A program made the position numbers and the translations under genes. Shown here in pieces: positions 1 to 41,216 of a DNA stretch of 41,216 nt; positions within the stretch are counted from its first letter, which is position 1; every line of letters starts with the position of its first letter. The stretch lies in the IMG/VR virus record IMGVR_UViG_3300036782_000053, positions 1 through 41,216 of that record, one strand, 5' to 3'. The DNA is from a virus. The notes below the pieces were generated by a model that saw only the letters and a program-made list of their open reading frames with translations, made no database searches and was not told the DNA's origin.

Positions 1-127
1 TTAACGTTTTCATTAATGTTTTCATCTTCATCAACGTTAACATTACCATTAACATTGTTGTTAACGTTATTACCCTGTTCATCTTCACCACTTCTTGTAG
101 CACTTTCTCCAAATAAATCAGCTAATT
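1..127. repeat. Terminal overlap: bases 1-127 are identical to 41090-41216 (closure of a 41,089-bp circle, or terminal redundancy)
   Basis: Base-by-base comparison of the two window ends: ttaacgttttcattaatgttttcatc...ctccaaataaatcagctaatt is present at both. An ORF reads continuously across the junction. Confidence 0.95.
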
Positions 128-146: not shown

Positions 147-915
147 TCAGCTCCTTAAATAAATTCTTATAATAAAATGCAAATTCATTATCTTTTTTAG
201 TAAGTGTAAGTGGTAATTGGTTATAAGCAATCGAATTAGCAAATTGAATAGTTCTAGGGATATTAGCTTTAAAGAAGTGAATGCCTTCTTTCTCACAAAA
301 ACGACTTGCTTGTTTCATCGCTTCTGTATGAAGCTTAGTATTCTTTTGAACTAATGTAGCTACAACTCCAGTAATCTCTAAATTAGGATTATGTTTATTT
401 TTAAATTGACCAATTACATCGATTATTTTTATTAGTGATCGTACGGAATATTGTTCCGGTTGGAAAGGAATAATAATTTTATCCGTACAGCAAATTACAT
501 TACTTTGTATTAACCCTGAAGATGGTGGGCTATCAAATAAGATTACATCGTAATCGTCTTCCACAGACATTAACGCCACCTTTAAAAGTAAAAATGGATT
601 TATGTATTTATCTAAGTTAGGCAATATATCGAAATCTAAAAAGCTCATCATTTCATTAGACGGTAATACATCGATGTTCTCATGAACATTAACTATCGCT
701 TCACTTGCCGGTGCAAAATGAACTAAAACATCGTGCAATGTAGTACGATACTTGTCCGGATTCTTCCCGAAAGACAACAGTGAATTCCCTTGTTGGTCAG
801 CATCCACAATTAGAACACGTTTACCTTGTTTCGCATAAAGTCCAGCTAAATTTACAGTCATTGAAGACTTTAACACGCCGCCTTTATTCTGTACGAAAGC
901 TAATTTATAAGCCAT
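118..915 (-). CDS. parA: ParA/Soj-family partition ATPase (small type-Ib form, no N-terminal HTH)
   Basis: 265-aa ORF. Deviant Walker A NKGGVLKSS near the N terminus, plus VDADQQGN and LFDSPPS motifs. GGAGG 7 nt upstream of the ATG at 915. Confidence 0.9.
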   Translation of the reverse strand: MAYKLAFVQNKGGVLKSSMTVNLAGLYAKQGKRVLIVDADQQGNSLLSFGKNPDKYRTTLHDVLVHFAPASEAIVNVHENIDVLPSNEMMSFLDFDILPNLDKYINPFLLLKVALMSVEDDYDVILFDSPPSSGLIQSNVICCTDKIIIPFQPEQYSVRSLIKIIDVIGQFKNKHNPNLEITGVVATLVQKNTKLHTEAMKQASRFCEKEGIHFFKANIPRTIQFANSIAYNQLPLTLTKKDNEFAFYYKNLFKELNDFEGARIS

Positions 916-934
916 TCTGATACCTCCATTAAAT

Positions 935-1004
935 TTACATTAACAACAACGTTAACGTTTATATTAATAATTACATTAACGTTAATGATTATGTTTATAT
1001 TAAT
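935..1004. promoter_or_regulatory. par promoter region with two tandem ~35-bp modules carrying perfect palindromes (AACGTTAACGTT, ATTAACGTTAAT); candidate parS/operator
   Basis: TTACATTAACAACAACGTTAACGTTTATATTAATAA (935-970) followed by TTACATTAACGTTAATGATTATGTTTATATTAAT (971-1004), immediately upstream of parA. The second module recurs 30/34 at 40754-40787. Confidence 0.55.
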
Positions 1005-1097
1005 CTACTTTATCATACTTATTCTTTCATGCAATTGTTTTCCCTTTAAATCTTTTAAAAATACTTTCATTCGGGTATGTGAAATTTTAAGTTTAAA

Positions 1098-1122
1098 CAA
1101 AATAAAAAAGAGCCGAAGCTCT
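1098..1122 (-). terminator. Rho-independent terminator after the 46-aa ORF
   Basis: On the minus strand, AGAGC-TTCG-GCTCT followed by TTTTTTATTTT. The stem starts at the stop codon. Confidence 0.8.
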
Positions 1123-1262
1123 TATTTCGTTAAAGTATTAATTTGTTCTAAAAGTGCAATTGCCTGTGGATCACCGTTCTCCGCTTTTTCTAAGATGATA
1201 TGTAACTTGTCCTCCACAGTAATTTCATTCTCCATTTGTAATGCAGCCCCTTGATTCATCAT
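1122..1262 (-). CDS. 46-aa acidic small ORF in the AimX position, downstream of the receptor-peptide pair
   Basis: GGGAGG 9 nt upstream of ATGATG at 1262. Translation MMNQGAALQMENEITVEDKLHIILEKAENGDPQAIALLEQINTLTK. Followed directly by a strong terminator. Below the size cutoff of the ORF track. Confidence 0.5.
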   Translation of the reverse strand: MMNQGAALQMENEITVEDKLHIILEKAENGDPQAIALLEQINTLTK

Positions 1263-1300
1263 AGTAATTTTCCTCCCTAGTTTTTATGTAAGATATATAA

Positions 1301-1339
1301 GTGACACAGTTTTACGATTTGGTGTTTTATTTGTGTCAC
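1301..1339. promoter_or_regulatory. Inverted repeat GTGACACA-N23-TGTGTCAC; candidate receptor operator in front of the 46-aa ORF
   Basis: Perfect 8-bp arms at 1301-1308 and 1332-1339, lying between the peptide gene and a TATATA -10-like element upstream of the 46-aa ORF. Confidence 0.5.
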
Positions 1340-1354
1340 CCCTTAAACGCACTG

Positions 1355-1380
1355 AAAGTCGCTACCGAAGTAACGACTTT
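1355..1380. terminator. Stable 11-bp hairpin with tetraloop downstream of the peptide gene (terminator or attenuator, possibly bidirectional)
   Basis: AAAGTCGCTAC-CGAA-GTAACGACTTT with one G-T pair. The plus-strand side is followed by CTTTTG. The minus-strand side lacks a clean U tract. Confidence 0.4.
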
Positions 1381-1411
1381 CTTTTGCTGATATTTGTATT
1401 AAATTAATTTA

Positions 1412-1540
1412 TTAACTGCCGCCCGGATCAACCATCATATACTTAACCGGGCTTGTCTGATCTACTTTATCAACATTTCCAAATACTCCGAATCCAAATG
1501 CCCCTACGCACATCATTAGTGCAACTAGTTTCTTTTTCAT
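1412..1540 (-). CDS. 42-aa secreted signalling pre-peptide (AimP/Phr-like)
   Basis: Its ATG overlaps the receptor stop codon (ATGA at 1537-1540). Translation MKKKLVALMMCVGAFGFGVFGNVDKVDQTSPVKYMMVDPGGS has a KKK n-region, a hydrophobic core and a polar C-terminal pro-region. Not in the ORF track. Confidence 0.7.
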   Translation of the reverse strand: MKKKLVALMMCVGAFGFGVFGNVDKVDQTSPVKYMMVDPGGS

Positions 1541-2667
1541 TGTAGTAATTCCCCTTTGCTCATTAGTATGTTCTTACATAACTGGCCATAGAAACTTAAT
1601 CCTGATAATTCAAATTCTAGTAAGGCTTGTTTAATGCCTTCTAAATTCCCAATACATTTACTATAAGTAAATCGTTGGAAAGGACTAAAACCTTCTATCT
1701 CCATTTCTTTAAAAAGTGACAATCCCAGTTTCCGATCCCCAAAATTATATTCATAATTAGCTTTTTCGTTCTTGTGGATTGCCGACAAATTAATCTCTTT
1801 AATATTAATCTCATAATTTAGCCTTACATGTGCAAGTGTTGACTGAAAAGCTACATATTTTTGAGATTTTAAAGGAACATTAACTTCTCCCAATTTTTCA
1901 ATTGCCTTTGATATGTATTCAATTGATTTAGATGGAGATTCAAATTGATAGCTTTCTCCCAAACAACAAAAGGCAGTTGCTTGAATAATTGGAATATCTA
2001 TGCAAGAGTTGATTATTTTATAGCATGTATCTCTACATTCATCAAGTTGCACTCTCCATAAATACATGTACGCTTTTCGTTCATCAGCTAACATGCGTAA
2101 GTAATCCTTAATAATACCTTCTCGTAGTTTTTCTAAATTTTGTTCCATTGCATCCACATATTGAATGATTGCATTGTTATTTGGCATATCCGCAAGTGAT
2201 AACATTAATAGAATGTTTACCATCACCTGACAATGTGGATTGGAGGAAAAGCGCTTGCTACTTAATTCATTGTAAAGTTCTTTACCTCTTAATTCGTTCT
2301 TATTTCTTTTGTTAAAAAGTTTATATATGCTGAAGAATATTCCTAAATTAGTTTTCTGTTCATTTTTAGTTATTAAGTGATTCATAAGATCGTACTCACC
2401 TTTAACTTGGCAATATATTAAACCAACTTCAATATTCGATATACTTTCACATTTACTAAAGTATTCACTAGTAATTTCCCTTTTCTCGCTTTGCTTTTCA
2501 AATAAAAGATTAATAGCATCAAAGAACAATTTTACATCCATTTCATATTCACATGTAATCCCTCTTCTGAGCTTTTCACGACTCACTTTAAGTTTTTCAG
2601 CAAAACCTCTTCTTGAATATCCTAGGGATTCCATTCTACTTAATAAATGATTCATAACTCGTTGCAT
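1537..2667 (-). CDS. RRNPP-family (AimR-like) HTH plus helical-repeat peptide receptor/transcription regulator
   Basis: 376 aa. N-terminal HTH-like segment LGYSRRGFAEKLKVSREKLRRGI, then about 300 aa of helical repeat-like sequence. GGAAGGGG RBS. Size and architecture match AimR, and it is coupled to a small secreted-peptide gene. Confidence 0.7.
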   Translation of the reverse strand: MQRVMNHLLSRMESLGYSRRGFAEKLKVSREKLRRGITCEYEMDVKLFFDAINLLFEKQSEKREITSEYFSKCESISNIEVGLIYCQVKGEYDLMNHLITKNEQKTNLGIFFSIYKLFNKRNKNELRGKELYNELSSKRFSSNPHCQVMVNILLMLSLADMPNNNAIIQYVDAMEQNLEKLREGIIKDYLRMLADERKAYMYLWRVQLDECRDTCYKIINSCIDIPIIQATAFCCLGESYQFESPSKSIEYISKAIEKLGEVNVPLKSQKYVAFQSTLAHVRLNYEINIKEINLSAIHKNEKANYEYNFGDRKLGLSLFKEMEIEGFSPFQRFTYSKCIGNLEGIKQALLEFELSGLSFYGQLCKNILMSKGELLQ

Positions 2668-2791
2668 GATTTTCCCCTTCCAGAAAAAATAAACCGTGTC
2701 CTAACGAATTTTCTCAAGTCGGAAACAAAATACGAGGAAAGAATATTGCGTTTTTGTGTTATACTTAGATGTGACTCGTATGTAGCAAAGT

Positions 2792-2873
2792 GTTTCCTAA
2801 GTACCAGTTAGGGAACGGTTCAAGAGATAGTTTGACAGCCGCCTCTTGAACGCGCTCATATGGGTCTTTTTTT
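2792..2873 (+). other. Two adjacent hairpins plus a T7 run in the noncoding region upstream of the receptor gene; possible small RNA or leader structure
   Basis: GTTTCCTAA-N7-TTAGGGAAC (2792-2816), GTTCAAGAG-N16-CTCTTGAAC (2818-2851), TTTTTTT at 2867-2873. No ORF on either strand. Confidence 0.25.
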
Positions 2874-2982
2874 CGTTCGTTATAGTTATTTTTAATACTA
2901 TCACGAATTTTCTAATTTTTGATGACTAGGTCACCTGATAATTGTTGAGAAAGTTTTTTTATTGTTATAAATCAAGATTTCG

Positions 2983-2996
2983 TTTTACATGTAAAA
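2983..2996. promoter_or_regulatory. 14-bp perfect palindrome TTTTACATGTAAAA; possible operator
   Basis: Read directly. Lies in the AT-rich divergent region between the receptor gene and the 3164 XRE gene. Confidence 0.3.
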
Positions 2997-3046
2997 TTTC
3001 ATATTAACTAATGATTTATTAGCGCATGAATATTTTACCATAAAAC

Positions 3047-3060
3047 AGAACCTTTGTTCT
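3047..3060. promoter_or_regulatory. Cheo-box-like LexA site aGAAC-CTTT-GTTCt inside a TTACCA-N18-TATATT promoter-like element
   Basis: GAAC at 3048-3051 and GTTC at 3056-3059 (GAAC-N4-GTTC). TATATT at 3059-3064 overlaps the box and TTACCA lies at 3035-3040. About 100 bp upstream of the XRE gene. Confidence 0.45.
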
Positions 3061-3163
3061 ATATTTATTTTTAATTTAGTTGTTTGGTGACTAAAAATCT
3101 ATAAACGTTAATAAAACGACTATTTGTAGTGGTGTGTGGAGGTACTGTTTATACTTATTTATT

Positions 3164-3508
3164 ATGATAATTTTTGGTAAAACTCTAAGACAATTGAGAA
3201 AATCGCGTGATCTAACACAAATTGAATTGGCTGAGATTTTAAATCTTAGTCAGAGCCAAATCAAAAATTGGGAAACAGGACGATTTCAGCCGGATATTGA
3301 AACTCTTTCTAATATGGCTTCCTTTTTCAACGTCTCATTAGACGTCCTTGTTGGCTTTTCAAACAATTTCGAAGATGAACCAATACAACAAGTCATTTCT
3401 GAAGCTAGGTCAACGTATGGGGCGTTAAACGAAGCTCAGAAAGAACGTTTTTGTAATCAGTTGTTATTGTTCATGAAAATGATAAAAGACAATCAAGGAA
3501 CGTTCTAA
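3164..3508 (+). CDS. XRE-family HTH transcriptional regulator (114 aa)
   Basis: MIIFGKTLRQLRKSRDLTQIELAEILNLSQSQIKNWETG is a classic XRE HTH N terminus. The start at ATG 3164 is preferred over the track start at 3134. No well-spaced RBS, so the start is uncertain. Confidence 0.8.
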   Translation: MIIFGKTLRQLRKSRDLTQIELAEILNLSQSQIKNWETGRFQPDIETLSNMASFFNVSLDVLVGFSNNFEDEPIQQVISEARSTYGALNEAQKERFCNQLLLFMKMIKDNQGTF

Positions 3509-3591
3509 ATTACATTCATTGTAAAAGAAATGTTTTCCAATTTATAGCGGTAAAATATTACATTATTTTACTCAATGTGGAAGGGGGCTGT

Positions 3592-4479
3592 TTAGCTCTC
3601 TTCTTTTCTGTTTTTACCTAGTAACTCAGCTAAACGTTTTTGGTTTTCTTCTATATCTTCAGTAGCTTGTCCATTGTCTTCCACAGTTACTACTTCATTA
3701 TCTTCTTTTAACCACTCAGGGGCCATTTCAGTACGTACATATTTAGAACCTGATACTTTTGCTTTACCTTGTCTTACTTTCTGTTTCTGGCCAAGCTTAG
3801 ACATCTTTTCTTCCACAACCTTTATGACATAGTTTTCAGCAGCAACTAGATCGGTAGTTCCGATTGCTTTGCATTTACTAGTAACATCATGAATTGCTTT
3901 AATAGTTTTTTGGTTTGTAATCTCTCGCTCTTTGATCTTTGAATTCATTAAATCAAGAATCATAGATTCAGTGACAGGGTTAGTTATAATTTCTTCTTCT
4001 TCTTTTTCTTTAATTAAGTCTTTTTTTATAATATCTTTCTTATCTCTTGGTTTTGAGGTCTTCATTTTGAGGTCTTGAAAATCAAGTCCCCAAATTTGAC
4101 CGTGTTCTTTTTCGGCATAAGCAAGAATCTCTTCACGTTCTTCAGCTGTGAATGGCTTGATACGATAGTAATATTCGTAGTCCCATTTCTTACCCACACG
4201 AAACTTATATTCAATGATGTAATTAGCATCCATTAATTCTTTCCATGCATTTTTTACAGATACTTCTTTATTCTTTCCATAACGTTTGTACAGTTCTGTT
4301 TTATGTAATTCCCATTCTTCAGTGTTGTAAGACCAAAGATTAACGATTAATCCTAATGCTTGTAATGAAAGACAACTTTCTGGATCATCATTATTTTTTC
4401 GCGTTTCAACTGCAACTGCTGTTTTGTTTGGTACTTCCACATATTCTTTTTCTAGTTTCCATTTTTTCATTTTAGCCAT
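3592..4479 (-). CDS. Putative plasmid/prophage replication initiator (winged-helix Rep or DnaD-like), 295 aa
   Basis: GGAGG RBS before ATG 4479 (MAKMKKWKLEKEY). The N-terminal half resembles RepA_N-type initiators of Firmicute plasmids (LSLQALGLIVNLWSY...VKNAWKELMDANYI). Charged low-complexity linker. Sits between the repressor and partition genes. Confidence 0.5.
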   Translation of the reverse strand: MAKMKKWKLEKEYVEVPNKTAVAVETRKNNDDPESCLSLQALGLIVNLWSYNTEEWELHKTELYKRYGKNKEVSVKNAWKELMDANYIIEYKFRVGKKWDYEYYYRIKPFTAEEREEILAYAEKEHGQIWGLDFQDLKMKTSKPRDKKDIIKKDLIKEKEEEEIITNPVTESMILDLMNSKIKEREITNQKTIKAIHDVTSKCKAIGTTDLVAAENYVIKVVEEKMSKLGQKQKVRQGKAKVSGSKYVRTEMAPEWLKEDNEVVTVEDNGQATEDIEENQKRLAELLGKNRKEES

Positions 4480-4563
4480 AATAAAAAATCCTCCATTTAC
4501 CTGCCCGACAAAAATTGGGTGTAGCAAAATAAAGGATTTGTATTTACGTTTTTTTAAGTTTAT

Positions 4564-4580
4564 GATACTATCAAAGTATC
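4564..4580. promoter_or_regulatory. Inverted repeat GATACT-ATCAA-AGTATC in the rep promoter region, containing the 12-mer ACTATCAAAGTA found in the 38.6-kb array
   Basis: Perfect 6-bp arms. The 12-mer at 4567-4578 is identical to the array unit at 38646-38657. Overlaps TTGATA -35-like hexamers on the minus strand. Confidence 0.5.
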
Positions 4581-4777
4581 AATTAAATTAACGTATGCAC
4601 AAAACCTCTGTTACCGGTTTTTAAATGGCGAGTGGCGACCAACCTTCTACCATCTAAAAACTTTCGTCGGGGGTTTTTTTATTTTTATATAAAGTTAGTT
4701 GTTTAAAAAAAGTATGTATCTATCCTTCATCTTAACAGAATCTTGTAGAAAAAAGAAGAATGATAAGGAAAAAGGTT

Positions 4778-4803
4778 GAGAGCTGAAAAGCTCTCTTTTT
4801 TTG
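4778..4803 (-). terminator. Terminator after the cI-like gene (bidirectional hairpin)
   Basis: GAGAGC-N6-GCTCTC flanked by a T run on the plus strand and AACCTTTTT on the minus strand. Confidence 0.7.
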
Positions 4804-4806
4804 TTT

Positions 4807-5127
4807 CTAGAAGTTATCAATTAAATTCATGATAGCTTGTCTCTTTTCTGGAGGTAATTTATTTATCTTCTCCATAAGATCGGCAGCTTCTTTTGAGATT
4901 TTCTCTGATTTGTCATGATTTAATGTTTTATGCTCTGATAATCCCAGCATGTAGTCAACAGATACATTGAAAAGTTTAGCCATTTTGACTTTATTTTCAC
5001 TTGAAGGGGACTGTTTTCCTGACTCGAATCTTGAGATATTAGATTTTTCAATTTCTAAGACATCTGCTAGTTGTTGTTGCGTCATTCCCTTCTCCAGGCG
5101 CAATGCTTTTAAGCGTTGTCCGAACAT
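4807..5127 (-). CDS. cI-like XRE-family repressor (106 aa)
   Basis: MFGQRLKALRLEKGMTQQQLADVLEIEKSNISRFESG HTH. Divergent from a cro-like gene. AGAGGAA RBS. Confidence 0.8.
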   Translation of the reverse strand: MFGQRLKALRLEKGMTQQQLADVLEIEKSNISRFESGKQSPSSENKVKMAKLFNVSVDYMLGLSEHKTLNHDKSEKISKEAADLMEKINKLPPEKRQAIMNLIDNF

Positions 5128-5255
5128 TTTTGTGTTCCTCTTTTCATTAAAAGTATTAAGATGTGTTTTTCACAACTTATTTATATCTACATTCTATATT
5201 AAAAGTTGAGTGGAAATCAACAAAATAATTATTTGTATAAAAAATCAAAATAATA

Positions 5256-5272
5256 GTTGCGTAATTCGCAAC
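5256..5272. promoter_or_regulatory. Operator palindrome GTTGCG-TAATT-CGCAAC in the cI/cro divergent region
   Basis: Perfect 6-bp arms, overlapping TTGCGT ... TATAAA promoter-like elements reading toward cro. Confidence 0.6.
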
Positions 5273-5313
5273 TTTGTTATAAACTCGATTTATGAAAGAG
5301 GTGTTCATCGTTT

Positions 5314-5514
5314 ATGATTATCAATAACGAATTTCTTCGTGAAATTAGGAAGGAAAAGGGATTAACACAAACTCAAGTGGCTAAGTTACTTAACCTTGAT
5401 AAGACATCTATTTCAAAGTACGAATCAGGCATTCATTGTCCTAGCTTAAGAGTTCTTGTGTTATATTCAGAGACTTTCGATATAAATATTGAAAAGTTTC
5501 TCAGGCAAAGTTAA
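5314..5514 (+). CDS. Cro-like XRE-family HTH protein (66 aa)
   Basis: LREIRKEKGLTQTQVAKLLNLDKTSISKYESG. AAGAGGTG RBS. Divergent from the cI-like gene. Confidence 0.8.
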   Translation: MIINNEFLREIRKEKGLTQTQVAKLLNLDKTSISKYESGIHCPSLRVLVLYSETFDINIEKFLRQS

Positions 5515-5520
5515 TTTTTT

Positions 5521-5556
5521 TTGCAACAAGGTTGTGTAATTCGCAACAAGTTGTGT
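5521..5556. promoter_or_regulatory. Second operator cluster (GTTGTG-TAATT-CGCAAC plus flanking GCAAC/GTTG half-sites) downstream of cro
   Basis: ttGCAACaagGTTGTGTAATTCGCAACaaGTTGTGtg. The core at 5531-5547 differs from the 5256 operator by one base. Confidence 0.5.
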
Positions 5557-5570
5557 GAGGAGGAGAGATC

Positions 5571-5726
5571 GTGAAAAACGGTAAGAATCCAACGAATAAA
5601 GAAAAACAACTAATTGAGTCATATAGTTTAAATCCGCGTAACTGGTTGATTTTTAAGAAAGCAGATGGACAGCTTCATTTAATCCACCGAAACACTTTTT
5701 ACAAACGTGTTATTCCAAATTCATAG
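5571..5726 (+). CDS. Hypothetical 51-aa protein
   Basis: GAGGAGG RBS 7 nt before GTG 5571. Translation VKNGKNPTNKEKQLIESYSLNPRNWLIFKKADGQLHLIHRNTFYKRVIPNS. Below the track cutoff. Confidence 0.55.
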   Translation: MKNGKNPTNKEKQLIESYSLNPRNWLIFKKADGQLHLIHRNTFYKRVIPNS

Positions 5727-5872: not shown

Positions 5873-6490
5873 ATGAAACCTGATGAGTTGTTCGAAGAGA
5901 AACAACATCTAGTATTCTTTGCAATAAAAGATCAATTTGGAAGTTACGAAATAGCTAAATTAATAGCAGAAAGAAATAATATGGAAATGGAAGATTTAAT
6001 TCAAGTTGCTAAATTAACGCTGTGGGAATTGTGCTTAAAATACGATCCAGAAAAAGATACTGGGTTTAAAACATATGCATTAACACATATGAAATGGCGT
6101 ATGAGTGACGAAATACATGAAAGAGGAACAGCATTTAAAGTAACTCGTTGGACTAAGCCTGAAGAACGAAACAAAATCAATACAAGACCAATTGATTTAC
6201 ATGCAAATGGTGAAATTGTGGAGGGATTCTTTGCGGTATCCACAATAGATGTGGCGAAGGAAGCTATAGTGTCAGTTGAATTTCAGCAAGCATTGGATTT
6301 GTTAACAGATGAAGAAAGACTGATTTTAATCAGAAAATCACAAGGTTATACAGACAGTGAAATTTCTAATGAAATCGGAAAAACTAGACAAATCATTCAT
6401 AAGAAGAAGAAAAGAGCGTTTTTAAAAATCAATCCTGATTATAAAAGCGTAATACAAAAGAAAAACCACCTGCTCCAACAGGTGATCTAA
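5873..6490 (+). CDS. Sigma-70 family (ECF-like) RNA polymerase sigma factor
   Basis: Region 2-like DLIQVAKLTLWELCLKYDPEKDTGFKTYALTHMKWRMSDEI and region 4-like LTDEERLILIRKSQGYTDSEISNEIGKTRQIIHKKKKRAF. Confidence 0.8.
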   Translation: MKPDELFEEKQHLVFFAIKDQFGSYEIAKLIAERNNMEMEDLIQVAKLTLWELCLKYDPEKDTGFKTYALTHMKWRMSDEIHERGTAFKVTRWTKPEERNKINTRPIDLHANGEIVEGFFAVSTIDVAKEAIVSVEFQQALDLLTDEERLILIRKSQGYTDSEISNEIGKTRQIIHKKKKRAFLKINPDYKSVIQKKNHLLQQVI

Positions 6491-14937: not shown

Positions 14938-14965
14938 ACTTTATTAAGAAATGGAGAAAATAAAT

Positions 14966-15709
14966 ATGGATGTAAAGTTACTAGCGTATACACAATTATC
15001 AGGAGAGTTTTTTGATGAATTAGCAAAGAATGTGGATGGAGTATTTACGGATGATTGCACTTTTATCCCATCAGACGGACAAGCTATTGCCCTCTCAGCA
15101 ATCCGTACTTGCTACTCACCTAACAAACCTAGTGAGATTGTAGGTCTAGAGGGTGAAAAATACTTTAAACAAAAGGCTACTGAAGGAGAAGGTAAAGAAG
15201 TAGATCGACTCATTAGACATATTGTAGGTTCGGGCCACACTTCAACATTGGAACATTTAACATATACTTTTTCAGTTGAAGGAGTCAGTCGAGCGCTCCT
15301 AGCTCAATTAACCCGTCACAGAGTAGGCTTTAGTTATTCGGTGCAGTCACAGCGATATGTAAAGCAGTCAACGGATAGTAGGCACGGCGGTTTCGAATGG
15401 GTAATACCTGAAAAGATTGAAAATGATATTGATGCAGAAAGAATGTTTGTACAGGCTATGAACAGAGCGCAAATGGCTTATGACTTACTTATTGCAGCAG
15501 GAGTACCTCAAGAAGATGCAAGGGCAGTCCTACCAAATGCAGCTACAACAAACTTAGTTTTAACAGTCAATTTACGTAGCTTACTAGACTTCTATTCTAA
15601 ACGGAGAAAAGGAAATGGGGCGCAGTATGAGATCACAGAGTTAGTGGAACGGTTACGTGAAGAGGTTGTAAAAGTTGAACAGTGGACGGATGAATTCTTT
15701 AAAAACTAA
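14966..15709 (+). CDS. thyX: FAD-dependent thymidylate synthase ThyX
   Basis: ThyX signature RHRVGFSYSVQSQRY. The start at ATG 14966 (RBS GGAG) is preferred over 14951. Confidence 0.9.
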   Translation: MDVKLLAYTQLSGEFFDELAKNVDGVFTDDCTFIPSDGQAIALSAIRTCYSPNKPSEIVGLEGEKYFKQKATEGEGKEVDRLIRHIVGSGHTSTLEHLTYTFSVEGVSRALLAQLTRHRVGFSYSVQSQRYVKQSTDSRHGGFEWVIPEKIENDIDAERMFVQAMNRAQMAYDLLIAAGVPQEDARAVLPNAATTNLVLTVNLRSLLDFYSKRRKGNGAQYEITELVERLREEVVKVEQWTDEFFKN

Positions 15710-18476: not shown

Positions 18477-18926
18477 GTGGCAATCAAGAAAAAGAACTAT
18501 GAATTGGCTTTTGAAGACTATAAAAACGGCATGTCATACGCTGATATTGCTATAAAATACGGCGTTGCTGAAACTACTGTCCGTGATACGTGGCGTAAGC
18601 GACATTGGAAGGAAGCGTTAGAAGAACATACTAACTTACGAGATAAGATTCGTGATGATTTGCTAGGTCAAATGAGGTCAAACGGTGTCATTCACGGACA
18701 TTTTCTTGATTTAGTTGAAGATTACATGGCAATGTGGGATATCAAAAACAATTTGATTGCTGATATCGAAGAACGCGGTGTATCTGTATTAGGTGCTAAT
18801 GGATTTATGAAGAAAAACGATAGCATTAACGAGTTGAATAAGACTAATACACAAATGTTAAAGATTCTTAATGAGTTGGGCCTTAAAGCGGTAAGTGAGG
18901 ATGTTGACGATGATGCAGAAGTCTAA
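18477..18926 (+). CDS. terS: Terminase small subunit
   Basis: 149 aa. N-terminal HTH (MSYADIAIKYGVAETTVRDTWRKRHW). Immediately upstream of, and overlapping, the large subunit gene. Confidence 0.75.
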   Translation: MAIKKKNYELAFEDYKNGMSYADIAIKYGVAETTVRDTWRKRHWKEALEEHTNLRDKIRDDLLGQMRSNGVIHGHFLDLVEDYMAMWDIKNNLIADIEERGVSVLGANGFMKKNDSINELNKTNTQMLKILNELGLKAVSEDVDDDAEV

Positions 18927-20577
18927 TCTTCCTTATAAATACCACCCTTACATTAGTGAGTACATGTATAGTGTGGAAAGCGGAATAATCAGATCATGTA
19001 AAGAACAAAAGCAATTAATGGCCTTAGTTCGAAAAACTTTAGATGATCCAAATGTTTATGTTGACGTTCAAGCGATTGAAGATAGTGTTAATATTCCTGC
19101 TAAGTATTACCCGTTCGAATTGTTCGCCTGGCAACGATTCGTTAACGCTTGTGTGTTTGGTGTTAGATACAAGGACAGTGACCGTTTGGTTTGGAATCAA
19201 ATACTTATTTTAATGGGTCGTGGTGGTGGTAAAAACGGATATGCTGGTTATTTGAATTTCTACATGATTTCTAAACAGTTTGGCATCGATAACTACCACG
19301 TTGAATGGATCGCAACATCAGAAGAACAGGCAAAAACTACATTCAAAGACGTGAAAGATGTAATAGAAAAACCTGCAAATAAGGTTTTAAAGAAATCTTT
19401 TAGCGCAACTAAGGTACTTATTCAACATAAAACACATAAATCTCACATCAAATACAATACTTCTAATGCTAGAACGAAAGATGGTTTACGTCCTGGTGCT
19501 GTTTTCTTTGATGAAATTCATGAATATGAAGACTATTCATCCATTAAAGTATTCCGTTCGGCTTTAGGTAAAGTAAAGGACGGTCGAACATTCTATTTAA
19601 CTACCGACGGGTATGTCCGTGGCGGTGTTTTAGATGATTACAAAGAGAAAGCGCGCATGATTCTAAGTGGAGAAGTTGAAAACAGTAAGATTTTCCCCTT
19701 CATCTGCAAATTGGATTCTGAAGAAGAAGTAGAAGACATTGCAAACTGGGAAAAAGCTAATCCTTCAATTAGAGATAACAAAGAATTATTTGAAACGATG
19801 AAAGAGGAATGGACCGATTGTCAAACGTCTATTCCGATGCATGTTGAATTCATGACAAAACGGATGAACATCCCAAAGCAGTTATTTCAACATAAGATTG
19901 CTACTTATGAGGATCTTCTTGCGACAGATCAAGAACTACCAGACGATTTACACAAATATGAATGTATTGGTGGTGTGGATTACGCGGAGTTACGCGACTT
20001 CTGCAGCGTCGGTTTGCTATTTAAACGACAGGGGAAGCGTTATTGGATTCACCACACGTTTATATGGCATCAGGCGTTGAAAATGCAGGATATTAATCAA
20101 GATATTATAGATATAGGTGTGGAAAAAGGACTCTTCACCATCGTCTACGATAAGGAAATTAAACCTGAACGTGTTATTAATTGGTTTTTAGAAAAAGCGA
20201 AAACTTATAGCATTAAATATTTAGCAATTGATAAATTTCGTTCTGTTATTCTGAAACCTTTATTAGAACAAGCAGGATTCAATGACCGCGTACAGGTTGT
20301 GCGTCGTGGACAGTATATACATGCTATGTTAGACCCTCTCATTCAACATTTGTTTATTAATCATAACATTGTATTTTCTGATGACCCTGTTATGCGTTGG
20401 TATTGTGGGAATATCTATGTGGACGAACTAGGGAATGGCTCAAAAGAATATAAAAAAATCGACCCTGTCAAAAGAAAAACTGACGGGTTTTTTGCATTCA
20501 CACACGCGCTCAATTTCGATGGTGATCTTGAAGACTATGCAGTCGATTTAAACGATATGCAAGTATGGTCATTCTAA
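18910..20577 (+). CDS. terL: Terminase large subunit
   Basis: Walker A LMGRGGGKNGY, Walker B-like VFFDEIHE, C-terminal nuclease-size domain. The start at ATG 18910 is 9 nt after GAGG. Confidence 0.9.
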   Translation: MMQKSNLPYKYHPYISEYMYSVESGIIRSCKEQKQLMALVRKTLDDPNVYVDVQAIEDSVNIPAKYYPFELFAWQRFVNACVFGVRYKDSDRLVWNQILILMGRGGGKNGYAGYLNFYMISKQFGIDNYHVEWIATSEEQAKTTFKDVKDVIEKPANKVLKKSFSATKVLIQHKTHKSHIKYNTSNARTKDGLRPGAVFFDEIHEYEDYSSIKVFRSALGKVKDGRTFYLTTDGYVRGGVLDDYKEKARMILSGEVENSKIFPFICKLDSEEEVEDIANWEKANPSIRDNKELFETMKEEWTDCQTSIPMHVEFMTKRMNIPKQLFQHKIATYEDLLATDQELPDDLHKYECIGGVDYAELRDFCSVGLLFKRQGKRYWIHHTFIWHQALKMQDINQDIIDIGVEKGLFTIVYDKEIKPERVINWFLEKAKTYSIKYLAIDKFRSVILKPLLEQAGFNDRVQVVRRGQYIHAMLDPLIQHLFINHNIVFSDDPVMRWYCGNIYVDELGNGSKEYKKIDPVKRKTDGFFAFTHALNFDGDLEDYAVDLNDMQVWSF

Positions 20578-35821: not shown

Positions 35822-36901
35822 ATGAATAAAAATCTTACGATTCACGGATTAAGAGGACTAGCTGCTATTTTAGTTGTTTTTTATCATATTTATGGAATGG
35901 CTTATATAGGTGGTTTTTTTAGAGAAAGGACAGTAGAAGGCGCTTTTAGGATTTATCATAATTTTGGGCCCATGGGGGTTAACATATTCTTTATGATTAG
36001 TGGGTTTCTGATTATAGGAAGTCTATCAAGACATGTTGAGATAAAGAAATTTATGATTAACAGAATCATAAGAATTTACCCTGTGTTCTTATGTTTACAC
36101 CTTGTTGTTTTTCTATTCGGACCATTTATCAACTACGAATGGTTAGGAAACGTGAACCTGAGAGAGTACATTTTAGGTTTTATTTCAAACATTTTTTTAT
36201 TGCCAGGAATGTTTGATTTGCCAATAGCTCAAAAAAACGCATGGTCTTTAAGTTATGAATTTACTTTTTATATTGTATCTTCAATGTTTTTCTTTGTTAT
36301 ATTCAAAGCTAAAAATAACATCCTTAGAGTTTCAGGAATAATAATTCTTTCATTTATCTCTTTAACTATAATTTATAATCATCACACAGCTGTTTTCTTT
36401 GCACTAGGAGCGTTAGTTTATTATTCTTATAATCATATTAATTTTAGATATGTGTATAAACGATATTATGCATTAAACGGTGTCATTTTATTGACATTAA
36501 CATTTCTTTTGTATGATTCCAATAATAATCTTGCTATTTTACCATTAATTTTTAGCACACTGTTATTCTGGGTAGCTGTAAATGAAGAAGGATTACTATC
36601 AAACATTTTAAGAAATAAAGTTTTTCAATACTTAGGTACAATTAGTTACAGCCTTTATCTAATTCATCCATTTGCAATGTTTCCTTTAAAAGTTATATTC
36701 AGTTCTGGAAAGATGAAAAATTTGATTAACAATGAGTATCTAAGTATTATTCTCTTTGGAATAGCTAGTTTAATTTTAGCAATTATAGCAGCTCACATAT
36801 CACATCGTTTAATAGAGGTCTGGTTCACAAATAAAATAAAGCGTTCGTTCCAAAAAACATATAAATCTAAACCAACTGATATTAATACTAGAGTTTCATA
36901 A
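35822..36901 (+). CDS. Acyltransferase-3 family integral membrane O-acyltransferase (OafA/Oac-like)
   Basis: HGLRGLAAILVVFYH N-terminal motif and about 10 hydrophobic segments. Own TATAAT element and AAAAGGAG RBS. Own terminator. Confidence 0.8.
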   Translation: MNKNLTIHGLRGLAAILVVFYHIYGMAYIGGFFRERTVEGAFRIYHNFGPMGVNIFFMISGFLIIGSLSRHVEIKKFMINRIIRIYPVFLCLHLVVFLFGPFINYEWLGNVNLREYILGFISNIFLLPGMFDLPIAQKNAWSLSYEFTFYIVSSMFFFVIFKAKNNILRVSGIIILSFISLTIIYNHHTAVFFALGALVYYSYNHINFRYVYKRYYALNGVILLTLTFLLYDSNNNLAILPLIFSTLLFWVAVNEEGLLSNILRNKVFQYLGTISYSLYLIHPFAMFPLKVIFSSGKMKNLINNEYLSIILFGIASLILAIIAAHISHRLIEVWFTNKIKRSFQKTYKSKPTDINTRVS

Positions 36902-40851: not shown

Positions 40852-41216
40852 TTATAATAAACCTCGTTCTTCAAAGAAATCACGGAATATTTTATTTGCA
40901 ATTTTTGATTGATCTCCGCGTTTTGGTTTTTTACCTAATAGCTTTTGAAAAGCATCACGAACATCTTTATCTAAATGAAATCCTACAACTTTTTTATCAT
41001 TGTTGTCTTTTAATAATTCGAGGATATCTTCATTTGCTTTCTTTTTAACTTCTGGCTCTTTTGGATTATTGTTACCATTTTCTTCTTCATTAACGTTTTC
41101 ATTAATGTTTTCATCTTCATCAACGTTAACATTACCATTAACATTGTTGTTAACGTTATTACCCTGTTCATCTTCACCACTTCTTGTAGCACTTTCTCCA
41201 AATAAATCAGCTAATT
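40852..41216 (-). CDS. ParG-like ribbon-helix-helix partition protein, 3' part (gene truncated by the window edge; first 19 nt are at 146..128)
   Basis: Translated codon by codon with no stop from 41216 down to TAA (40852-40854). The C-terminal KKVVGFHLDKDVRDAFQKLLGKKPKRGDQSKIANKIFRDFFEERG fits a beta-strand/helix/helix RHH layout. The N-terminal half is an N/V/D/E low-complexity tail. Confidence 0.65.
   Translation of the reverse strand, partial: LADLFGESATRSGEDEQGNNVNNNVNGNVNVDEDENINENVNEEENGNNNPKEPEVKKKANEDILELLKDNNDKKVVGFHLDKDVRDAFQKLLGKKPKRGDQSKIANKIFRDFFEERGLL
41090..41216. repeat. Second copy of the 127-bp terminal overlap (identical to 1-127)
   Basis: See the first feature. Confidence 0.95.

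What the first reader, a model, noticed from the sequence alone, without database searches (positions are those of the whole stretch)
1412..2667. Hidden 42-aa secreted pre-peptide translationally coupled to an HTH/helical-repeat receptor: an arbitrium/RRNPP-type signalling pair with a non-canonical peptide, on a plasmid-prophage
Seen in the sequence:
- The 376-aa ORF (1537..2667, minus strand) starts with an HTH-like segment (LGYSRRGFAEKLKVSREKLRRGI), followed by about 300 aa of helical-repeat-like sequence.
- Its TGA stop overlaps (ATGA, 1537-1540) the ATG of a 42-codon ORF that is absent from the ORF track: MKKKLVALMMCVGAFGFGVFGNVDKVDQTSPVKYMMVDPGGS.
- That peptide has a KKK n-region, a hydrophobic core and a polar pro-region.

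Established knowledge: this is the architecture of AimR-AimP in SPbeta/phi3T-type phages (receptor of roughly 380 aa; pre-peptide of roughly 43 aa whose extreme C terminus is the mature signal). The wider RRNPP families (Rap-Phr, PlcR-PapR, NprR-NprX) share it.

Inference:
- The phage measures its own density with a C-terminal fragment of this peptide.
- The ...YMMVDPGGS end does not match the xxxRGA/xxxxGA endings I recall for classical AimP, so this is likely a different specificity class.
- The cassette sits between the partition operon and the Rep/cI genes rather than next to an integrase. Its output could therefore be plasmid maintenance or copy number as well as lysis-lysogeny.
Basis: partly seen in the sequence, partly recalled or inferred. 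Interest (0 to 1): 0.85.

Follow-up and report, generated by a model that had tools for sequence, protein, structure and literature searches.

The report
Arbitrium peptide signalling on a phage-plasmid
This is a genuine but already-recognised kind of phage "arbitrium" quorum-sensing pair (receptor AimR plus a secreted pre-peptide AimP) on a 41-kb Bacillus cereus-group phage that lives as a plasmid, and the evidence points to control of the lysis-lysogeny switch rather than plasmid maintenance.

Summary
A 376-aa ORF (1537-2667, minus strand) overlaps by ATGA a 42-codon ORF (1412-1540) that encodes a signal-peptide-like pre-peptide ending in YMMVDPGGS.

The receptor is an AimR by three tests:
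- Pfam PF22871: 80 bits.
- NCBIfam equivalog NF038310: 313 bits against a cutoff of 70.
- Predicted structure: the 16 best PDB matches are all AimR.

RefSeq already names the gene AimR in sibling plasmids about 89% identical in DNA. All 21 related loci examined carry the small ORF. Its DPGGS codons show 187 synonymous and 0 nonsynonymous pairwise differences.

The peptide is not exotic. (D/E)PGG endings are usual in B. cereus-group arbitrium systems (B83, RBClin15, and the tested MMSEPGGGGW).

Downstream of aimP lie a covarying terminator hairpin, a long-spaced inverted repeat (1301-1339, the likely AimR operator), a 46-aa AimX candidate (1122-1262) and a conserved terminator before parA.

The AimC/AimL-like switch genes lie 2.1 kb upstream of aimR rather than next to aimX, so the module is split. 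AimX co-varies with the AimC C-terminal domain.

Nothing supports a plasmid-maintenance output. Verdict: a new member of a known kind, with a modest architectural variant.

The parts
1537..2667 (-). aimR: arbitrium peptide receptor, 376 aa, with an N-terminal HTH followed by an all-helical TPR-like domain
   Evidence: PF22871 AimR 80.2 bits (cutoff 26.7) and phrog_1728 E 1.6e-104. NCBIfam NF038310 lysogeny_AimR equivalog 312.8 bits (cutoff 70). AlphaFold model pLDDT 92.1. Foldseek top 16 PDB matches are all AimR, TMq 0.60-0.82.
1412..1540 (-). aimP: 42-aa pre-peptide with a KKK n-region, a hydrophobic core and a polar pro-region ending in YMMVDPGGS. Its ATG overlaps the aimR stop (ATGA).
   Evidence: phrog_2682 E 5.6e-9. 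Present after aimR in all related loci.
1415..1438 (-). Codons for MMVDPGGS, the predicted mature signal region. The C-terminal end is fixed by the stop codon. The N-terminal boundary is inferred by analogy with MMSEPGGGGW.
   Evidence: DPGGS codons: 187 synonymous and 0 nonsynonymous pairwise differences. Sole [DE]PGG in six frames. Validated relatives' peptides cited in PMC11945551.
1354..1381 (-). Hairpin GAAAGTCGTTAC-TTCG-GTAGCGACTTTC directly after aimP; likely terminator or attenuator of the aimR-aimP transcript
   Evidence: Part of the MFE fold of the intergenic RNA, z -4.19. 98.9% of cells paired across 15 loci, with 3 pairs changed on both sides.
1301..1339 (.). Putative AimR operator: GTGACACA-N23-TGTGTCAC (outer hexamers GTGACA/TGTCAC 27 bp apart)
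   Evidence: Only such site in the window, even allowing 2 mismatches. The half-sites change together between clades: GTGACCCA/TGGGTCAC and GTGACAA/TTGTCAC. Same layout as the footprinted SPbeta operator ATCACT-N25-AGTGAT downstream of aimP (PMC6458997).
1122..1262 (-). aimX candidate: 46-aa ORF MMNQGAALQMENEITVEDKLHIILEKAENGDPQAIALLEQINTLTK with a strong SD (AGGGAGG, 1272-1278)
   Evidence: A 41-59-aa ORF sits at the same position in all related loci. It is 83-93% identical in sibling plasmids whose AimR is only 33% identical. It co-varies with the AimC C-terminal domain. No family match.
1098..1123 (-). Intrinsic-terminator-like hairpin plus T-run at the aimX stop, before parA
   Evidence: z -3.0. 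Conserved in all plasmid-type relatives where it could be located.
4807..5127 (-). aimC-like repressor (106 aa: HTH plus a helical C-terminal domain), the likely target of AimX
   Evidence: 43% identity over the full length to the HD29phi XRE repressor in the canonical aimC position, E 3e-24. Its C-terminal 45 aa track AimX identity, while its HTH does not. AimX residues 25-44 resemble AimC residues 72-91, BLASTP E 0.008.
5314..5514 (+). aimL-like, cro-like HTH gene (66 aa), divergent from aimC and followed by a sigma factor and replication genes
   Evidence: HTH families. Divergent arrangement and downstream sigma factor and primase genes. Matches the aimC-aimL definition in bioRxiv 10.1101/2025.11.23.689978.
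3164..3508 (+). Second AimC-like HTH regulator (114 aa from the ATG at 3164), divergent from aimR; role unknown
   Evidence: HTH_3. Weak match to PDB 9IAQ, the AimC of BMBtp14, E 1.2e-3. Homologs at the same position in the plasmid-type loci and in L019. Its C-terminal domain does not track AimX.
3032..3060 (-). LexA (Cheo) box AGAACAAAGGTTCT (3047-3060) followed by an extended -10, TGGTAAAAT (3032-3040), reading toward aimR
   Evidence: Only GAAC-N4-GTTC in the window. Box and -10 are conserved at -329 to -394 from the aimR start in all 8 plasmid-type loci, in L003 and in L019, with a variant in L015. Absent from HD29phi-like loci.
2668..2881 (-). Conserved 5' leader of aimR (about 215 nt) containing hairpin P1 (2813-2857)
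   Evidence: Alignment. A 17-mer of it recurs in 21 genuine viral contigs. Wherever enough downstream sequence was held (14 loci), an AimR follows, from either of two clades. P1: 95.8% paired, 20 double-change cells, 0 of 500 shuffles as high. No Rfam match.

Best explanation
The locus is the sensor half of an arbitrium lysis-lysogeny system on a B. cereus-group phage-plasmid.

Shown by computation:
- aimR encodes an AimR-family HTH/TPR receptor.
- aimP, overlapping it by ATGA, encodes a 42-aa pre-peptide whose extreme C-terminus (...MMVDPGGS) is under strict purifying selection.

Inferred from the family's established mechanism:
- AimP is secreted and trimmed to a C-terminal peptide of about 6-10 residues, then re-imported by Opp.
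- Peptide-free AimR dimers bind the long-spaced inverted repeat at 1301-1339, just past the aimP hairpin, and switch on the 46-aa aimX gene.
- AimX, a small helical antirepressor, binds the C-terminal oligomerisation domain of the cI-like repressor AimC (4807-5127). That derepresses the divergent aimL early-lytic operon, which includes a sigma factor and replication genes.
- Accumulated peptide locks AimR off the operator, so AimC stays active and the phage stays, or becomes, a plasmid prophage.

Two local peculiarities:
- aimC and aimL are not next to aimX. They lie 2.1 kb upstream of aimR, beyond a rep-like gene and a second HTH gene, so AimX must act in trans.
- aimR appears to be driven through a conserved 5' leader from a promoter carrying a LexA box, which would give DNA damage an entry into the circuit.
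For: Receptor identity:
- Pfam AimR 80 bits, phrog_1728 E 1.6e-104, NCBIfam AimR equivalog 313 bits against a cutoff of 70.
- AlphaFold pLDDT 92.
- The top 16 PDB fold matches are AimR of SPbeta, phi3T, Katmira33 and ATCC13952 (E about 1e-7 to 1.5e-5). Rap follows at E about 1e-2.
- RefSeq names the homolog AimR in sibling plasmids.

Peptide:
- Conserved in 21 related loci. A further 14 leader-anchored loci all show AimR followed by a (D/E)PGG peptide.
- 187 synonymous and 0 nonsynonymous differences in DPGGS.
- The motif is shared with published B. cereus-group AimPs.

Operator:
- A unique perfect inverted repeat whose halves covary with the AimR clade.
- Geometry matches the SPbeta and phi3T operators.
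- Sibling plasmids with a 33%-identical AimR carry a different repeat at the same place.

AimX and AimC:
- A small ORF with a strong SD at the canonical position in all loci.
- An AimC homolog at 43% identity, E 3e-24.
- Within the plasmid class, AimX identity (67-91%) follows the AimC C-terminal domain (62-91%), not the AimC HTH (35-44%) or the other HTH protein (16-20%).
- AimX stays 83-93% identical where AimR has been swapped.
- The AimX-AimC antirepression mechanism is demonstrated for related systems, including a Waukesha92-like phage-plasmid, in bioRxiv 10.1101/2025.11.23.689978.

SOS input: a conserved LexA box plus extended -10.
Against: - Nothing here is experimental. Secretion, processing site, peptide binding, operator binding and the AimX-AimC interaction are all inferred.
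- No signal-peptide predictor was available.
- AimX has no family match. Its similarity to the AimC helix is weak: E 0.008 for a single comparison, and non-independent across relatives.
- AimX identity also correlates with AimR identity and with the AimC HTH across all loci, as expected from shared ancestry.
- The solved AimC structure (9IAQ) is weakly hit by the other HTH protein (3164-3508), not by the 4807-5127 protein.
- The consensus scan found no sigma-70-like promoter in front of aimX. That fits activator dependence but does not prove it.
- The inverted repeat could equally fold as an RNA stem.
- A single Cheo box is not significant by count alone: 0.35 expected, and 29 of 100 shuffles have at least one.
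Confidence: 0.8

Rival explanations
1. One reading: the cassette's output includes plasmid maintenance or copy number. This could happen through AimR-activated transcription reading from aimX into parA, or through AimR or AimX acting on the par or rep genes.
For: The gene order aimR-aimP-aimX-parA on one strand is kept in the plasmid-type relatives where the region could be read (window, L001, L004, L005, L006, L020, L021). A rep-like gene sits between aimR and aimC. Intrinsic terminators are never fully efficient.
Against: - A terminator-like hairpin plus T-run lies at the aimX stop and is conserved in the relatives.
- parA has its own promoter-like site (1016-988) and palindromes (974-987, 948-959).
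- L001 has about 1 kb, including an opposite-strand ORF, between aimX and parA.
- There is no second AimR-operator-like site anywhere in the window.
- AimX tracks the AimC C-terminal domain, whereas ParA and Rep alleles assort independently of AimX.
- Integrative relatives have homologous AimR-AimP-AimX cassettes without any par or rep genes.
Confidence: 0.08
2. AimX targets the second HTH regulator (3164-3508), which is divergent from aimR, instead of or in addition to the 4807-5127 protein. On this reading that regulator is the true AimC of this element.
For: It is adjacent to the arbitrium cassette. It has the AimC-like layout of an HTH plus a helical C-terminal domain. It is the protein that weakly matches the solved AimC of BMBtp14 (9IAQ, E 1.2e-3, residues 6-98). 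A homolog sits upstream of aimR in L019 as well.
Against: - Its C-terminal domain is only 16-20% identical between the window and siblings whose AimX is 67-91% identical.
- It has no local similarity to AimX.
- The ortholog of the canonical-position AimC of HD29phi is the 4807-5127 protein (43% identity against 29%).
- Only the 4807-5127 gene is paired with a divergent cro-like gene leading into the early operon.
Confidence: 0.15
3. The conserved inverted repeat at 1301-1339 acts as an RNA stem-loop in a read-through aimP-aimX transcript (processing, stability or attenuation) rather than as a DNA operator for AimR.
For: It forms a 10-bp stem in the MFE fold of the intergenic RNA. Covariation of the two halves fits an RNA helix as well as a palindromic protein site.
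Against: - The 23-nt AT-rich spacer and total span of about 39 bp match the experimentally footprinted AimR operators of SPbeta and phi3T, which sit at the same position.
- The repeat changes whenever the AimR clade changes, even where the flanking aimX is conserved.
- It lies downstream of a strong terminator-like hairpin.
Confidence: 0.1
4. The pair belongs to another RRNPP family (Rap-Phr, NprR-NprX, PlcR-PapR), or is a peptide-independent XRE-TPR regulator followed by an unrelated small secreted protein.
For: It shares the general RRNPP layout. Rap, NprR, PrgX and ComR appear further down the fold-search list.
Against: AimR-specific curated models score far above threshold. AimR structures beat Rap by about 5 orders of magnitude in E-value and cover the whole chain. 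The peptide C-terminus is under strict selection and shares the AimP (D/E)PGG motif.
Confidence: 0.02

Closest known systems
Arbitrium cassette of Bacillus phage vB_BthS-HD29phi (MN065183) and HD29phi-like prophages
   Same: AimR 70.7% identical. AimP has the same length, the same ATGA overlap and the ending ...QYMMTDPGGS. It has the same post-aimP hairpin and the same GTGACACA-N23-TGTGTCAC repeat, with a small ORF at the aimX position.
   Different: HD29phi-like elements carry a tyrosine integrase upstream. They also have the canonical layout with aimC convergent immediately after aimX and aimL next to it. Their AimX C-terminal half differs. They lack the LexA box upstream of aimR. In GenBank these genes are annotated only as "helix-turn-helix protein" and "hypothetical".
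"Extended arbitrium" module AimR-AimP-AimX-AimC-AimL (phi106, phiW23, Wbeta, BMBtp14-like, Waukesha92-like; Kabel et al., bioRxiv 10.1101/2025.11.23.689978)
   Same: All five components have counterparts here. There is a small AimX ORF downstream of aimP, a short cI-like AimC without an autocleavage domain, and a divergent cro-like AimL leading into replication genes. A phage-plasmid host element is known for the Waukesha92-like phage.
   Different: aimC is defined there as lying immediately downstream of the cassette in the opposite direction. Here it is 2.1 kb upstream of aimR on the same strand, and parA follows aimX. The candidate LexA site is upstream of aimR, not upstream of aimX as in phi106.
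SPbeta / phi3T AimR-AimP-AimX (Erez et al. 2017; Gallego del Sol et al. 2019, PMC6458997)
   Same: Receptor fold (TM about 0.8), size of about 380 aa, a pre-peptide of about 43 aa with the signal at the extreme C-terminus, and an operator of two inverted boxes with a spacer of about 25 bp downstream of aimP.
   Different: Only 14-18% sequence identity, with no sequence-level PDB hit. The peptide motif is (D/E)PGG(S) rather than xxxxGA. The half-site sequences differ. The downstream effector is different: RNA or MazE-like AimX with SroF there, and an AimC antirepressor here.
B. cereus-group phage-plasmids with arbitrium: vB_BtS_B83 (PMC6669507) and vB_Btc-RBClin15 (PMC11526630)
   Same: Temperate siphoviruses first deposited as plasmids, with partition genes plus AimR and AimP. 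Their AimP pro-peptides end in ...YYMADPGGSVG and ...RMMVDPGGGGW. RBClin15 also has parABS and an FtsK/replication-relaxation operon, like this window.
   Different: B83 AimR is only about 24% identical. The virion modules are different: the best TerL match in deposited phages is 57%. The peptide stops at Ser instead of extending to SVG or GGGW.

Membership tests
Arbitrium (AimR-AimP-AimX) | Receptor of the AimR family: an N-terminal HTH followed by a degenerate TPR-like helical domain of about 380 aa | tested here: met
   PF22871 80.2 bits against 26.7. NF038310 equivalog 312.8 bits against 70, covering 4-365 of 365 model positions. Foldseek top 16 are all AimR, TMq 0.60-0.82.
Arbitrium (AimR-AimP-AimX) | aimP immediately downstream on the same strand, encoding a pre-peptide of about 40-60 aa with an N-terminal export signal | tested here: met
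   42-aa ORF overlapping the aimR stop, with a KKK n-region and a hydrophobic core. phrog_2682. Conserved in all related loci. The export signal was judged by composition only, with no dedicated predictor.
Arbitrium (AimR-AimP-AimX) | The mature signal is the extreme C-terminus of AimP, conserved within a clade and variable at specificity positions | tested here: inconclusive
   The sequence pattern fits. DPGGS is invariant with 187 synonymous and 0 nonsynonymous differences, while the preceding residues vary: V, T, IS, N, Q. The motif is shared with the tested MMSEPGGGGW. Actual processing and peptide length cannot be determined in silico.
Arbitrium (AimR-AimP-AimX) | [quoted passage not shown] | tested here: met
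   GTGACACA-N23-TGTGTCAC at 1301-1339, unique in the window, with halves that covary with the AimR clade. Reference geometry from PMC6458997. Binding itself was not tested.
Arbitrium (AimR-AimP-AimX) | The peptide binds AimR and abolishes DNA binding, so that aimX expression falls and lysogeny is favoured | not testable with these tools
   Needs ITC or MST, EMSA, and infection or induction assays.
Arbitrium (AimR-AimP-AimX) | Carried by a temperate phage or other mobile element of Bacillus | tested here: met
   TerL, portal, major head, tape-measure, tail, holin and endolysin genes plus ParA, FtsK and replication-relaxation genes on a circular 41,089-bp unit. Nearest DNA matches are B. cereus-group plasmids of about 41 kb.
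Extended arbitrium module (Kabel et al. 2025) | A small AimX ORF (29-80 aa) downstream of aimP in the same direction | tested here: met
   46-aa ORF at 1122-1262 with a strong SD. Positional homologs in all loci.
Extended arbitrium module (Kabel et al. 2025) | aimC (a short single-HTH repressor) immediately downstream of the cassette in the opposite direction, with aimL divergent from it | tested here: not met
   The gene after aimX is parA, on the same strand. The AimC homolog (4807-5127) and its divergent partner (5314-5514) lie upstream of aimR, beyond a rep-like gene and another HTH gene. The components are present but the defining arrangement is not.
Extended arbitrium module (Kabel et al. 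2025) | AimX binds the AimC C-terminal domain and blocks its oligomerisation | tested here: inconclusive
   Indirect evidence only. AimX identity follows the AimC C-terminal domain within the plasmid class and across the AimR swap. There is weak helix similarity, E 0.008. No interaction prediction or assay was possible.
Rap-Phr | A TPR receptor without a DNA-binding HTH, and a Phr pre-peptide whose mature pentapeptide or hexapeptide is internal or C-terminal | tested here: not met
   An HTH is present (helices 19-25 and 30-37 in the model). Rap structures match only at E about 1e-2, against about 1e-7 for AimR.
PlcR-PapR / NprR-NprX | A receptor matching the PlcR or NprR families, chromosomal, controlling virulence or necrotrophism regulons | tested here: not met
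   No Pfam or NCBIfam hit to these families. NprR fold match has TM 0.41 and E 0.07. PlcR is absent from the top 50.

The most novel reading that the evidence does not exclude
In this phage-plasmid lineage the arbitrium sensor has been uncoupled from the cI/cro-like switch and re-sited between the rep and par modules. On this reading, peptide signalling would also tune plasmid-prophage maintenance, in addition to controlling lysis-lysogeny through AimX and AimC in trans. Two routes are conceivable: leaky read-through from aimX into parA, or AimX acting on the second HTH regulator next to the rep-like gene. aimR itself would be gated by an undescribed structured 5' leader behind an SOS-controlled promoter.
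Probability: 0.1. Interest if true: 0.6.

Novelty: new member of a known kind. Interest (0 to 1): 0.3.

Why it matters
As an AimR-AimP pair it adds only one more allele (...YMMVDPGGS) to a large, well-characterised family that NCBI's pipeline already names.

The modest added value lies in the context.

1. It is a natural case in which aimX has no convergent aimC to overlap. That fits the recent proposal that AimX acts as a trans-acting antirepressor protein rather than by antisense.
2. Sibling plasmids show the sensor unit (aimR, aimP and the operator) being exchanged as a cassette, while AimX and the AimC C-terminal domain stay with the backbone.
3. A conserved LexA box and a conserved leader upstream of aimR suggest a route for DNA-damage input. 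The preprint lists this route as unknown for many extended systems.

These are testable leads for people working on arbitrium in B. cereus-group phage-plasmids. They are not a new kind of system.

Tried and rejected
- Sequence searches of AimR against PDB, by single sequence and by a 20-sequence profile, found no AimR. They returned only spurious or PPR-repeat hits. Only the fold search made the link.
- Megablast of the locus against deposited phages found nothing.
- The single-protein scan of genome contigs returned only one locus, L003.
- Stokar-Avihail et al. 2019, which defines the AimR clades, is not held in the library. I could not assign a clade number and relied on secondary citations for its peptides.
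- A search for DPGGS-type strings in papers gave only the B83 paper as relevant. The 2026 Cell cross-talk paper does not mention the B. cereus group.
- Rfam found nothing credible in 900-5700.
- Four of the 25 hits to the leader 17-mer were chance matches inside unrelated coding sequence, and I discarded them.
- I considered a lipoprotein reading of AimP because of the conserved Cys in ...LMMCVG. I rejected it because LMMC is not a lipobox and the Cys is absent or displaced in the more distant AimPs.
- Apart from P1, the predicted leader helices never vary, so they can be neither supported nor refuted.
- I ran no further search on AimC, because the assignment is secondary to the finding.
Full report
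OBSERVATION

One is a 376-aa ORF at 1537-2667. The other is a 42-codon ORF at 1412-1540 whose ATG overlaps the TGA of the first (ATGA). The small ORF has its own GGGG Shine-Dalgarno 10 nt upstream, a KKK n-region, a hydrophobic core and a polar tail ending in YMMVDPGGS.

The window is a circular contig: a 41,089-bp unit with a 127-bp terminal overlap and 34.7% GC. It encodes a full siphovirus set: large terminase, portal, major head protein, tape measure, tail proteins, holin and endolysin. It also encodes ParA, an FtsK/SpoIIIE-like protein and a replication-relaxation protein. The "plasmid-prophage" description therefore holds. The nearest DNA relatives are B. cereus-group "plasmids" of about 41 kb. 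No deposited phage has a TerL more than 57% identical.

WHAT THE RECEPTOR IS

- The 376-aa protein scores 80 bits on Pfam AimR (cutoff 26.7) and E 1.6e-104 on phrog_1728.
- It scores 313 bits on NCBI's AimR equivalog model NF038310 (cutoff 70), aligned end to end.
- Its close homologs in public databases are already named "AimR family lysis-lysogeny pheromone receptor".
- Sequence searches against PDB fail.
- A high-confidence AlphaFold model (pLDDT 92, all-helical) has AimR crystal structures as its 16 best PDB matches, with TMq 0.60-0.82 over the whole chain and E about 1e-7 to 1.5e-5. Phage Rap proteins follow at E about 1e-2, and NprR, PrgX and ComR lie further down.
- There is one AimR in the window.

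WHAT THE PEPTIDE IS

The 42-mer matches phrog_2682. I collected 19 related loci spanning 33-93% AimR identity, plus two sibling plasmids. A signal-peptide-type small ORF follows aimR in every one and ends in DPGGS, DPGTS, DPGGL, EPGGH or DPGGH. The 4-nt start/stop overlap is kept in all loci with at least 55% AimR identity.

Within the 42-aa class the five DPGGS codons differ at 187 synonymous and 0 nonsynonymous positions in pairwise comparisons, including AGY-to-TCN serine switches. The pro-region is free to vary, at 44 synonymous and 471 nonsynonymous. These pairwise counts are not independent events, but the contrast is unambiguous. [DE]PGG occurs once in all six frames of the window, one residue from this ORF's stop.

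The ending is not unusual for the host group:
- B83 AimP ends ...YYMADPGGSVG (PMC6669507).
- RBClin15 AimP ends ...RMMVDPGGGGW (PMC11526630).
- A review citing Stokar-Avihail et al. 2019 lists EIKPGG (Wbeta) and MMSEPGGGGW (Waukesha92-like) as tested peptides (PMC11945551).

By analogy with MMSEPGGGGW, I predict that MMVDPGGS, or a slightly longer or shorter C-terminal fragment, is the signal. That boundary is inference.

DOWNSTREAM REGULATORY ANATOMY

The 149-nt aimP-aimX spacer has the same plan in all loci.

- First comes a 12-bp hairpin with a UUCG loop at 1354-1381. It is 98.9% paired across 15 loci, with three pairs changed on both sides.
- Then comes a conserved GTGCGTTTAAGG box.
- Then comes a perfect inverted repeat, GTGACACA-N23-TGTGTCAC, at 1301-1339. 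Its halves change together in other AimR clades (GTGACCCA/TGGGTCAC and GTGACAA/TTGTCAC). It is replaced by a different repeat in sibling plasmids whose AimR is only 33% identical.

This is the layout of the footprinted SPbeta operator (ATCACT-N25-AGTGAT) and the phi3T operator, which also lie downstream of aimP (PMC6458997). No second such site exists in the window, even with two mismatches.

A 46-aa ORF at 1122-1262 follows, with a strong SD. A terminator-like hairpin plus T-run sits at its stop, at 1098-1123. Both are conserved in the plasmid-type relatives.

Shown: the elements exist, are conserved and covary. Inferred: AimR binds the repeat and activates the small ORF.

THE OUTPUT AND THE "SPLIT" ARCHITECTURE

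A 2025 preprint (bioRxiv 10.1101/2025.11.23.689978) reports that about 75% of arbitrium systems are "extended": aimR, aimP and aimX in one direction, then aimC convergent and aimL divergent from it. In those systems AimX is a 29-80-aa antirepressor that binds the C-terminal oligomerisation domain of the repressor AimC. This was verified in a Waukesha92-like phage-plasmid, among others.

The nearest phage relative, HD29phi (AimR 70.7% identical), and similar prophages have exactly that layout, plus a tyrosine integrase upstream.

In the window and its plasmid-type relatives the gene after aimX is parA. The AimC homolog (4807-5127; 43% identical to HD29phi AimC over its full length, E 3e-24) and its divergent cro-like partner (5314-5514) lie upstream of aimR. 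They are separated from it by a variable rep-like gene (3592-4527) and a second AimC-like HTH gene (3164-3508). This layout is seen wherever the region could be read, in L001, L004, L005, L006, L020 and L021. L013 is cut short before parA.

Several observations tie the 46-aa ORF to the 4807-5127 protein:
- Within the plasmid class, AimX identity to the window (67-91%) follows the AimC C-terminal 45 residues (62-91%). It does not follow the AimC HTH (35-44%) or the other HTH protein's C-terminus (16-20%).
- In two sibling plasmids the sensor (AimR 33% identical, with a different AimP and repeat) has been exchanged, yet AimX remains 83-93% identical and the AimC C-terminal motif ...LMEKINKLPPEKR..NLID.F is retained.
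- AimX residues 25-44 resemble AimC residues 72-91 (BLASTP E 0.008 for the single comparison). That fits SinI/SinR-type mimicry. No similarity exists to the other HTH protein.

These are indirect and partly confounded by shared ancestry: Mantel tests are significant for all comparisons. PDB 9IAQ (AimC of BMBtp14) is weakly matched by the 3164-3508 protein rather than the 4807-5127 protein. I therefore keep that alternative at about 15%.

PLASMID-MAINTENANCE OUTPUT

I found nothing in favour of it beyond gene adjacency. The evidence against:
- The aimX terminator is conserved.
- parA has its own promoter-like site (1016-988) and palindromes (CATTAACGTTAATG at 974-987; AACGTTAACGTT at 948-959).
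- L001 has about 1 kb, including an opposite-strand ORF, between aimX and parA.
- ParA and Rep alleles assort independently of AimX.
- Homologous cassettes function in integrative elements without par or rep genes.

Read-through cannot be excluded without transcript data, so I rate this reading at about 8-10%.

UPSTREAM OF aimR (OUTSIDE THE FINDING'S COORDINATES)

The only Cheo box in the window (AGAACAAAGGTTCT, 3047-3060) lies 6 nt upstream of an extended -10 (TGGTAAAAT, 3032-3040) that points at aimR. By count alone one box is unremarkable: 0.35 expected. However, the box and the -10 are conserved in position in all eight plasmid-type loci and in L003 and L019, with a variant in L015. They are absent from the HD29phi-like loci.

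Between this promoter and aimR lies a strongly conserved leader. A 17-mer from it recurs in 21 genuine viral contigs. Wherever enough downstream sequence was held, an AimR of one of two clades follows about 200 nt downstream. One hairpin (P1, 2813-2857) has clear covariation: 95.8% paired, 20 double-change cells, 0 of 500 shuffles as high, and far above the slid controls. The other predicted helices never vary and so are untestable. There is no Rfam match.

This suggests SOS-dependent and possibly post-transcriptional control of aimR. The preprint notes that the route of DNA-damage input is unknown for many extended systems.

COMPARISON AND VERDICT

How it works: like any arbitrium system, with the AimX-AimC output recently described for most Bacillus arbitrium phages.

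Membership: the AimR, AimP and operator criteria that can be tested in silico are met. The positional criterion of the "extended" module (aimC convergent next to aimX) was tested and is not met, although all the components are present.

The finding as stated is therefore a new member of a known kind, and automatic annotation already labels its close homologs. The claims that made it look special do not stand: neither the "non-canonical peptide" nor the "plasmid-maintenance output" is supported.

What remains mildly interesting is the split module, the modular swapping of the sensor cassette, and the LexA box with the conserved leader upstream of aimR.

Interest: 0.3.

Noticed in passing
window 3032-3060: The single LexA (Cheo) box in the 41-kb window, AGAACAAAGGTTCT, lies 6 nt upstream of an extended -10 (TGGTAAAAT) pointing to aimR, in the divergent region between aimR and the HTH gene at 3164-3508. 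It is conserved in position in all plasmid-type relatives, in L003 and in L019, with a variant in L015. It is absent from HD29phi-like loci. This is a possible SOS input into the arbitrium circuit.
   Followed up: partly
window 2668-2881 (hairpin P1 at 2813-2857): A strongly conserved 5' leader of about 215 nt precedes aimR, with no Rfam match. A 17-mer from it (AAAGACCCATATGAGCG) recurs in 21 genuine viral contigs. Wherever enough downstream sequence was held, an AimR follows, from either of two clades only 33% identical to each other. One hairpin shows compensatory changes, and the other predicted helices never vary. It may be an undescribed cis-regulatory RNA.
   Followed up: partly
L020 (NZ_CP103780) 1528-3086; L021 (NZ_CP120960) 1588-3147: Sibling plasmids of about 41 kb share the backbone but carry a 33%-identical AimR, different AimPs (...YMQAEPGGH and ...YMMVDPGGH) and a different inverted repeat. 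AimX (83-93% identical) and the AimC C-terminal domain are retained. The sensor unit is therefore exchanged as a cassette, independently of the output pair.
   Followed up: partly
L021 1884-2027; also L038, L046: The AimPs of a distant AimR clade end in ...QYMMVDPGGH. They differ from the window's ...KYMMVDPGGS only at the last residue of the shared MMVDPGG core, although the receptors are only 33% identical. These are candidates for cross-talk or for last-residue discrimination.
   Followed up: no
L019 (IMGVR_UViG_2775507146_000002), ORF 19-204 nt after aimR: A 61-aa AimP-like pre-peptide carries two copies of the signal motif (...EQYAMDPGGL...VQYQQVDPGGL). One precursor may therefore yield two peptides.
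   Followed up: no
window 2983-2996: The palindrome TTTTACATGTAAAA lies between the LexA-box promoter and the aimR leader. Sibling plasmids have a different palindrome, ATATGCAAAATTGCATAT, at the same place. The neighbouring HTH gene (3164-3508) is likewise a different allele, about 30% identical to the siblings'. The palindrome could be that regulator's allele-specific operator.
   Followed up: no
window 3134-3508: The mechanical ORF starts at a GTG at 3134. Homologs of 114-115 aa indicate that the real start is the ATG at 3164 (MIIFGKTLRQL...).
   Followed up: partly
window 940-1016 and 1-117 / 40900-41216: parA has its own promoter-like site (1016-988) and palindromes (CATTAACGTTAATG at 974-987; AACGTTAACGTT at 948-959). 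The gene downstream of parA spans the contig junction and encodes an Asn/Val/Glu-rich repeat followed by a small basic C-terminal domain, so it is probably the centromere-binding partner.
   Followed up: no
window 1-127 = 41090-41216: An exact 127-bp terminal overlap shows that the window is a circularly closed assembly of a 41,089-bp unit.
   Followed up: yes
window 18895-20577 and the whole window: This phage lineage has no close relative among deposited phage genomes: the best TerL match is 57%, to Geobacillus phage PK5.2 and BMBtp13. Its relatives are filed as non-mobilizable "plasmids" of about 41 kb in B. cereus, B. thuringiensis, B. toyonensis and B. mycoides.
   Followed up: partly
window 3592-4527: The "Rep" gene between the second HTH gene and aimC has only weak replication-protein signals: phrog_25863 at E 2.6e-8 over the C-terminus, and the DnaB helicase-loader C-terminus at E 2e-4. 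It is replaced by unrelated alleles in sibling plasmids, with 10-40% identity.
   Followed up: partly
window 5873-6490; 14951-15709; 35822-36901: Accessory genes: a phage sigma-70-type factor just downstream of aimL, a thymidylate synthase, and an O-acetyltransferase-like moron between the tail genes and the holin.
   Followed up: no
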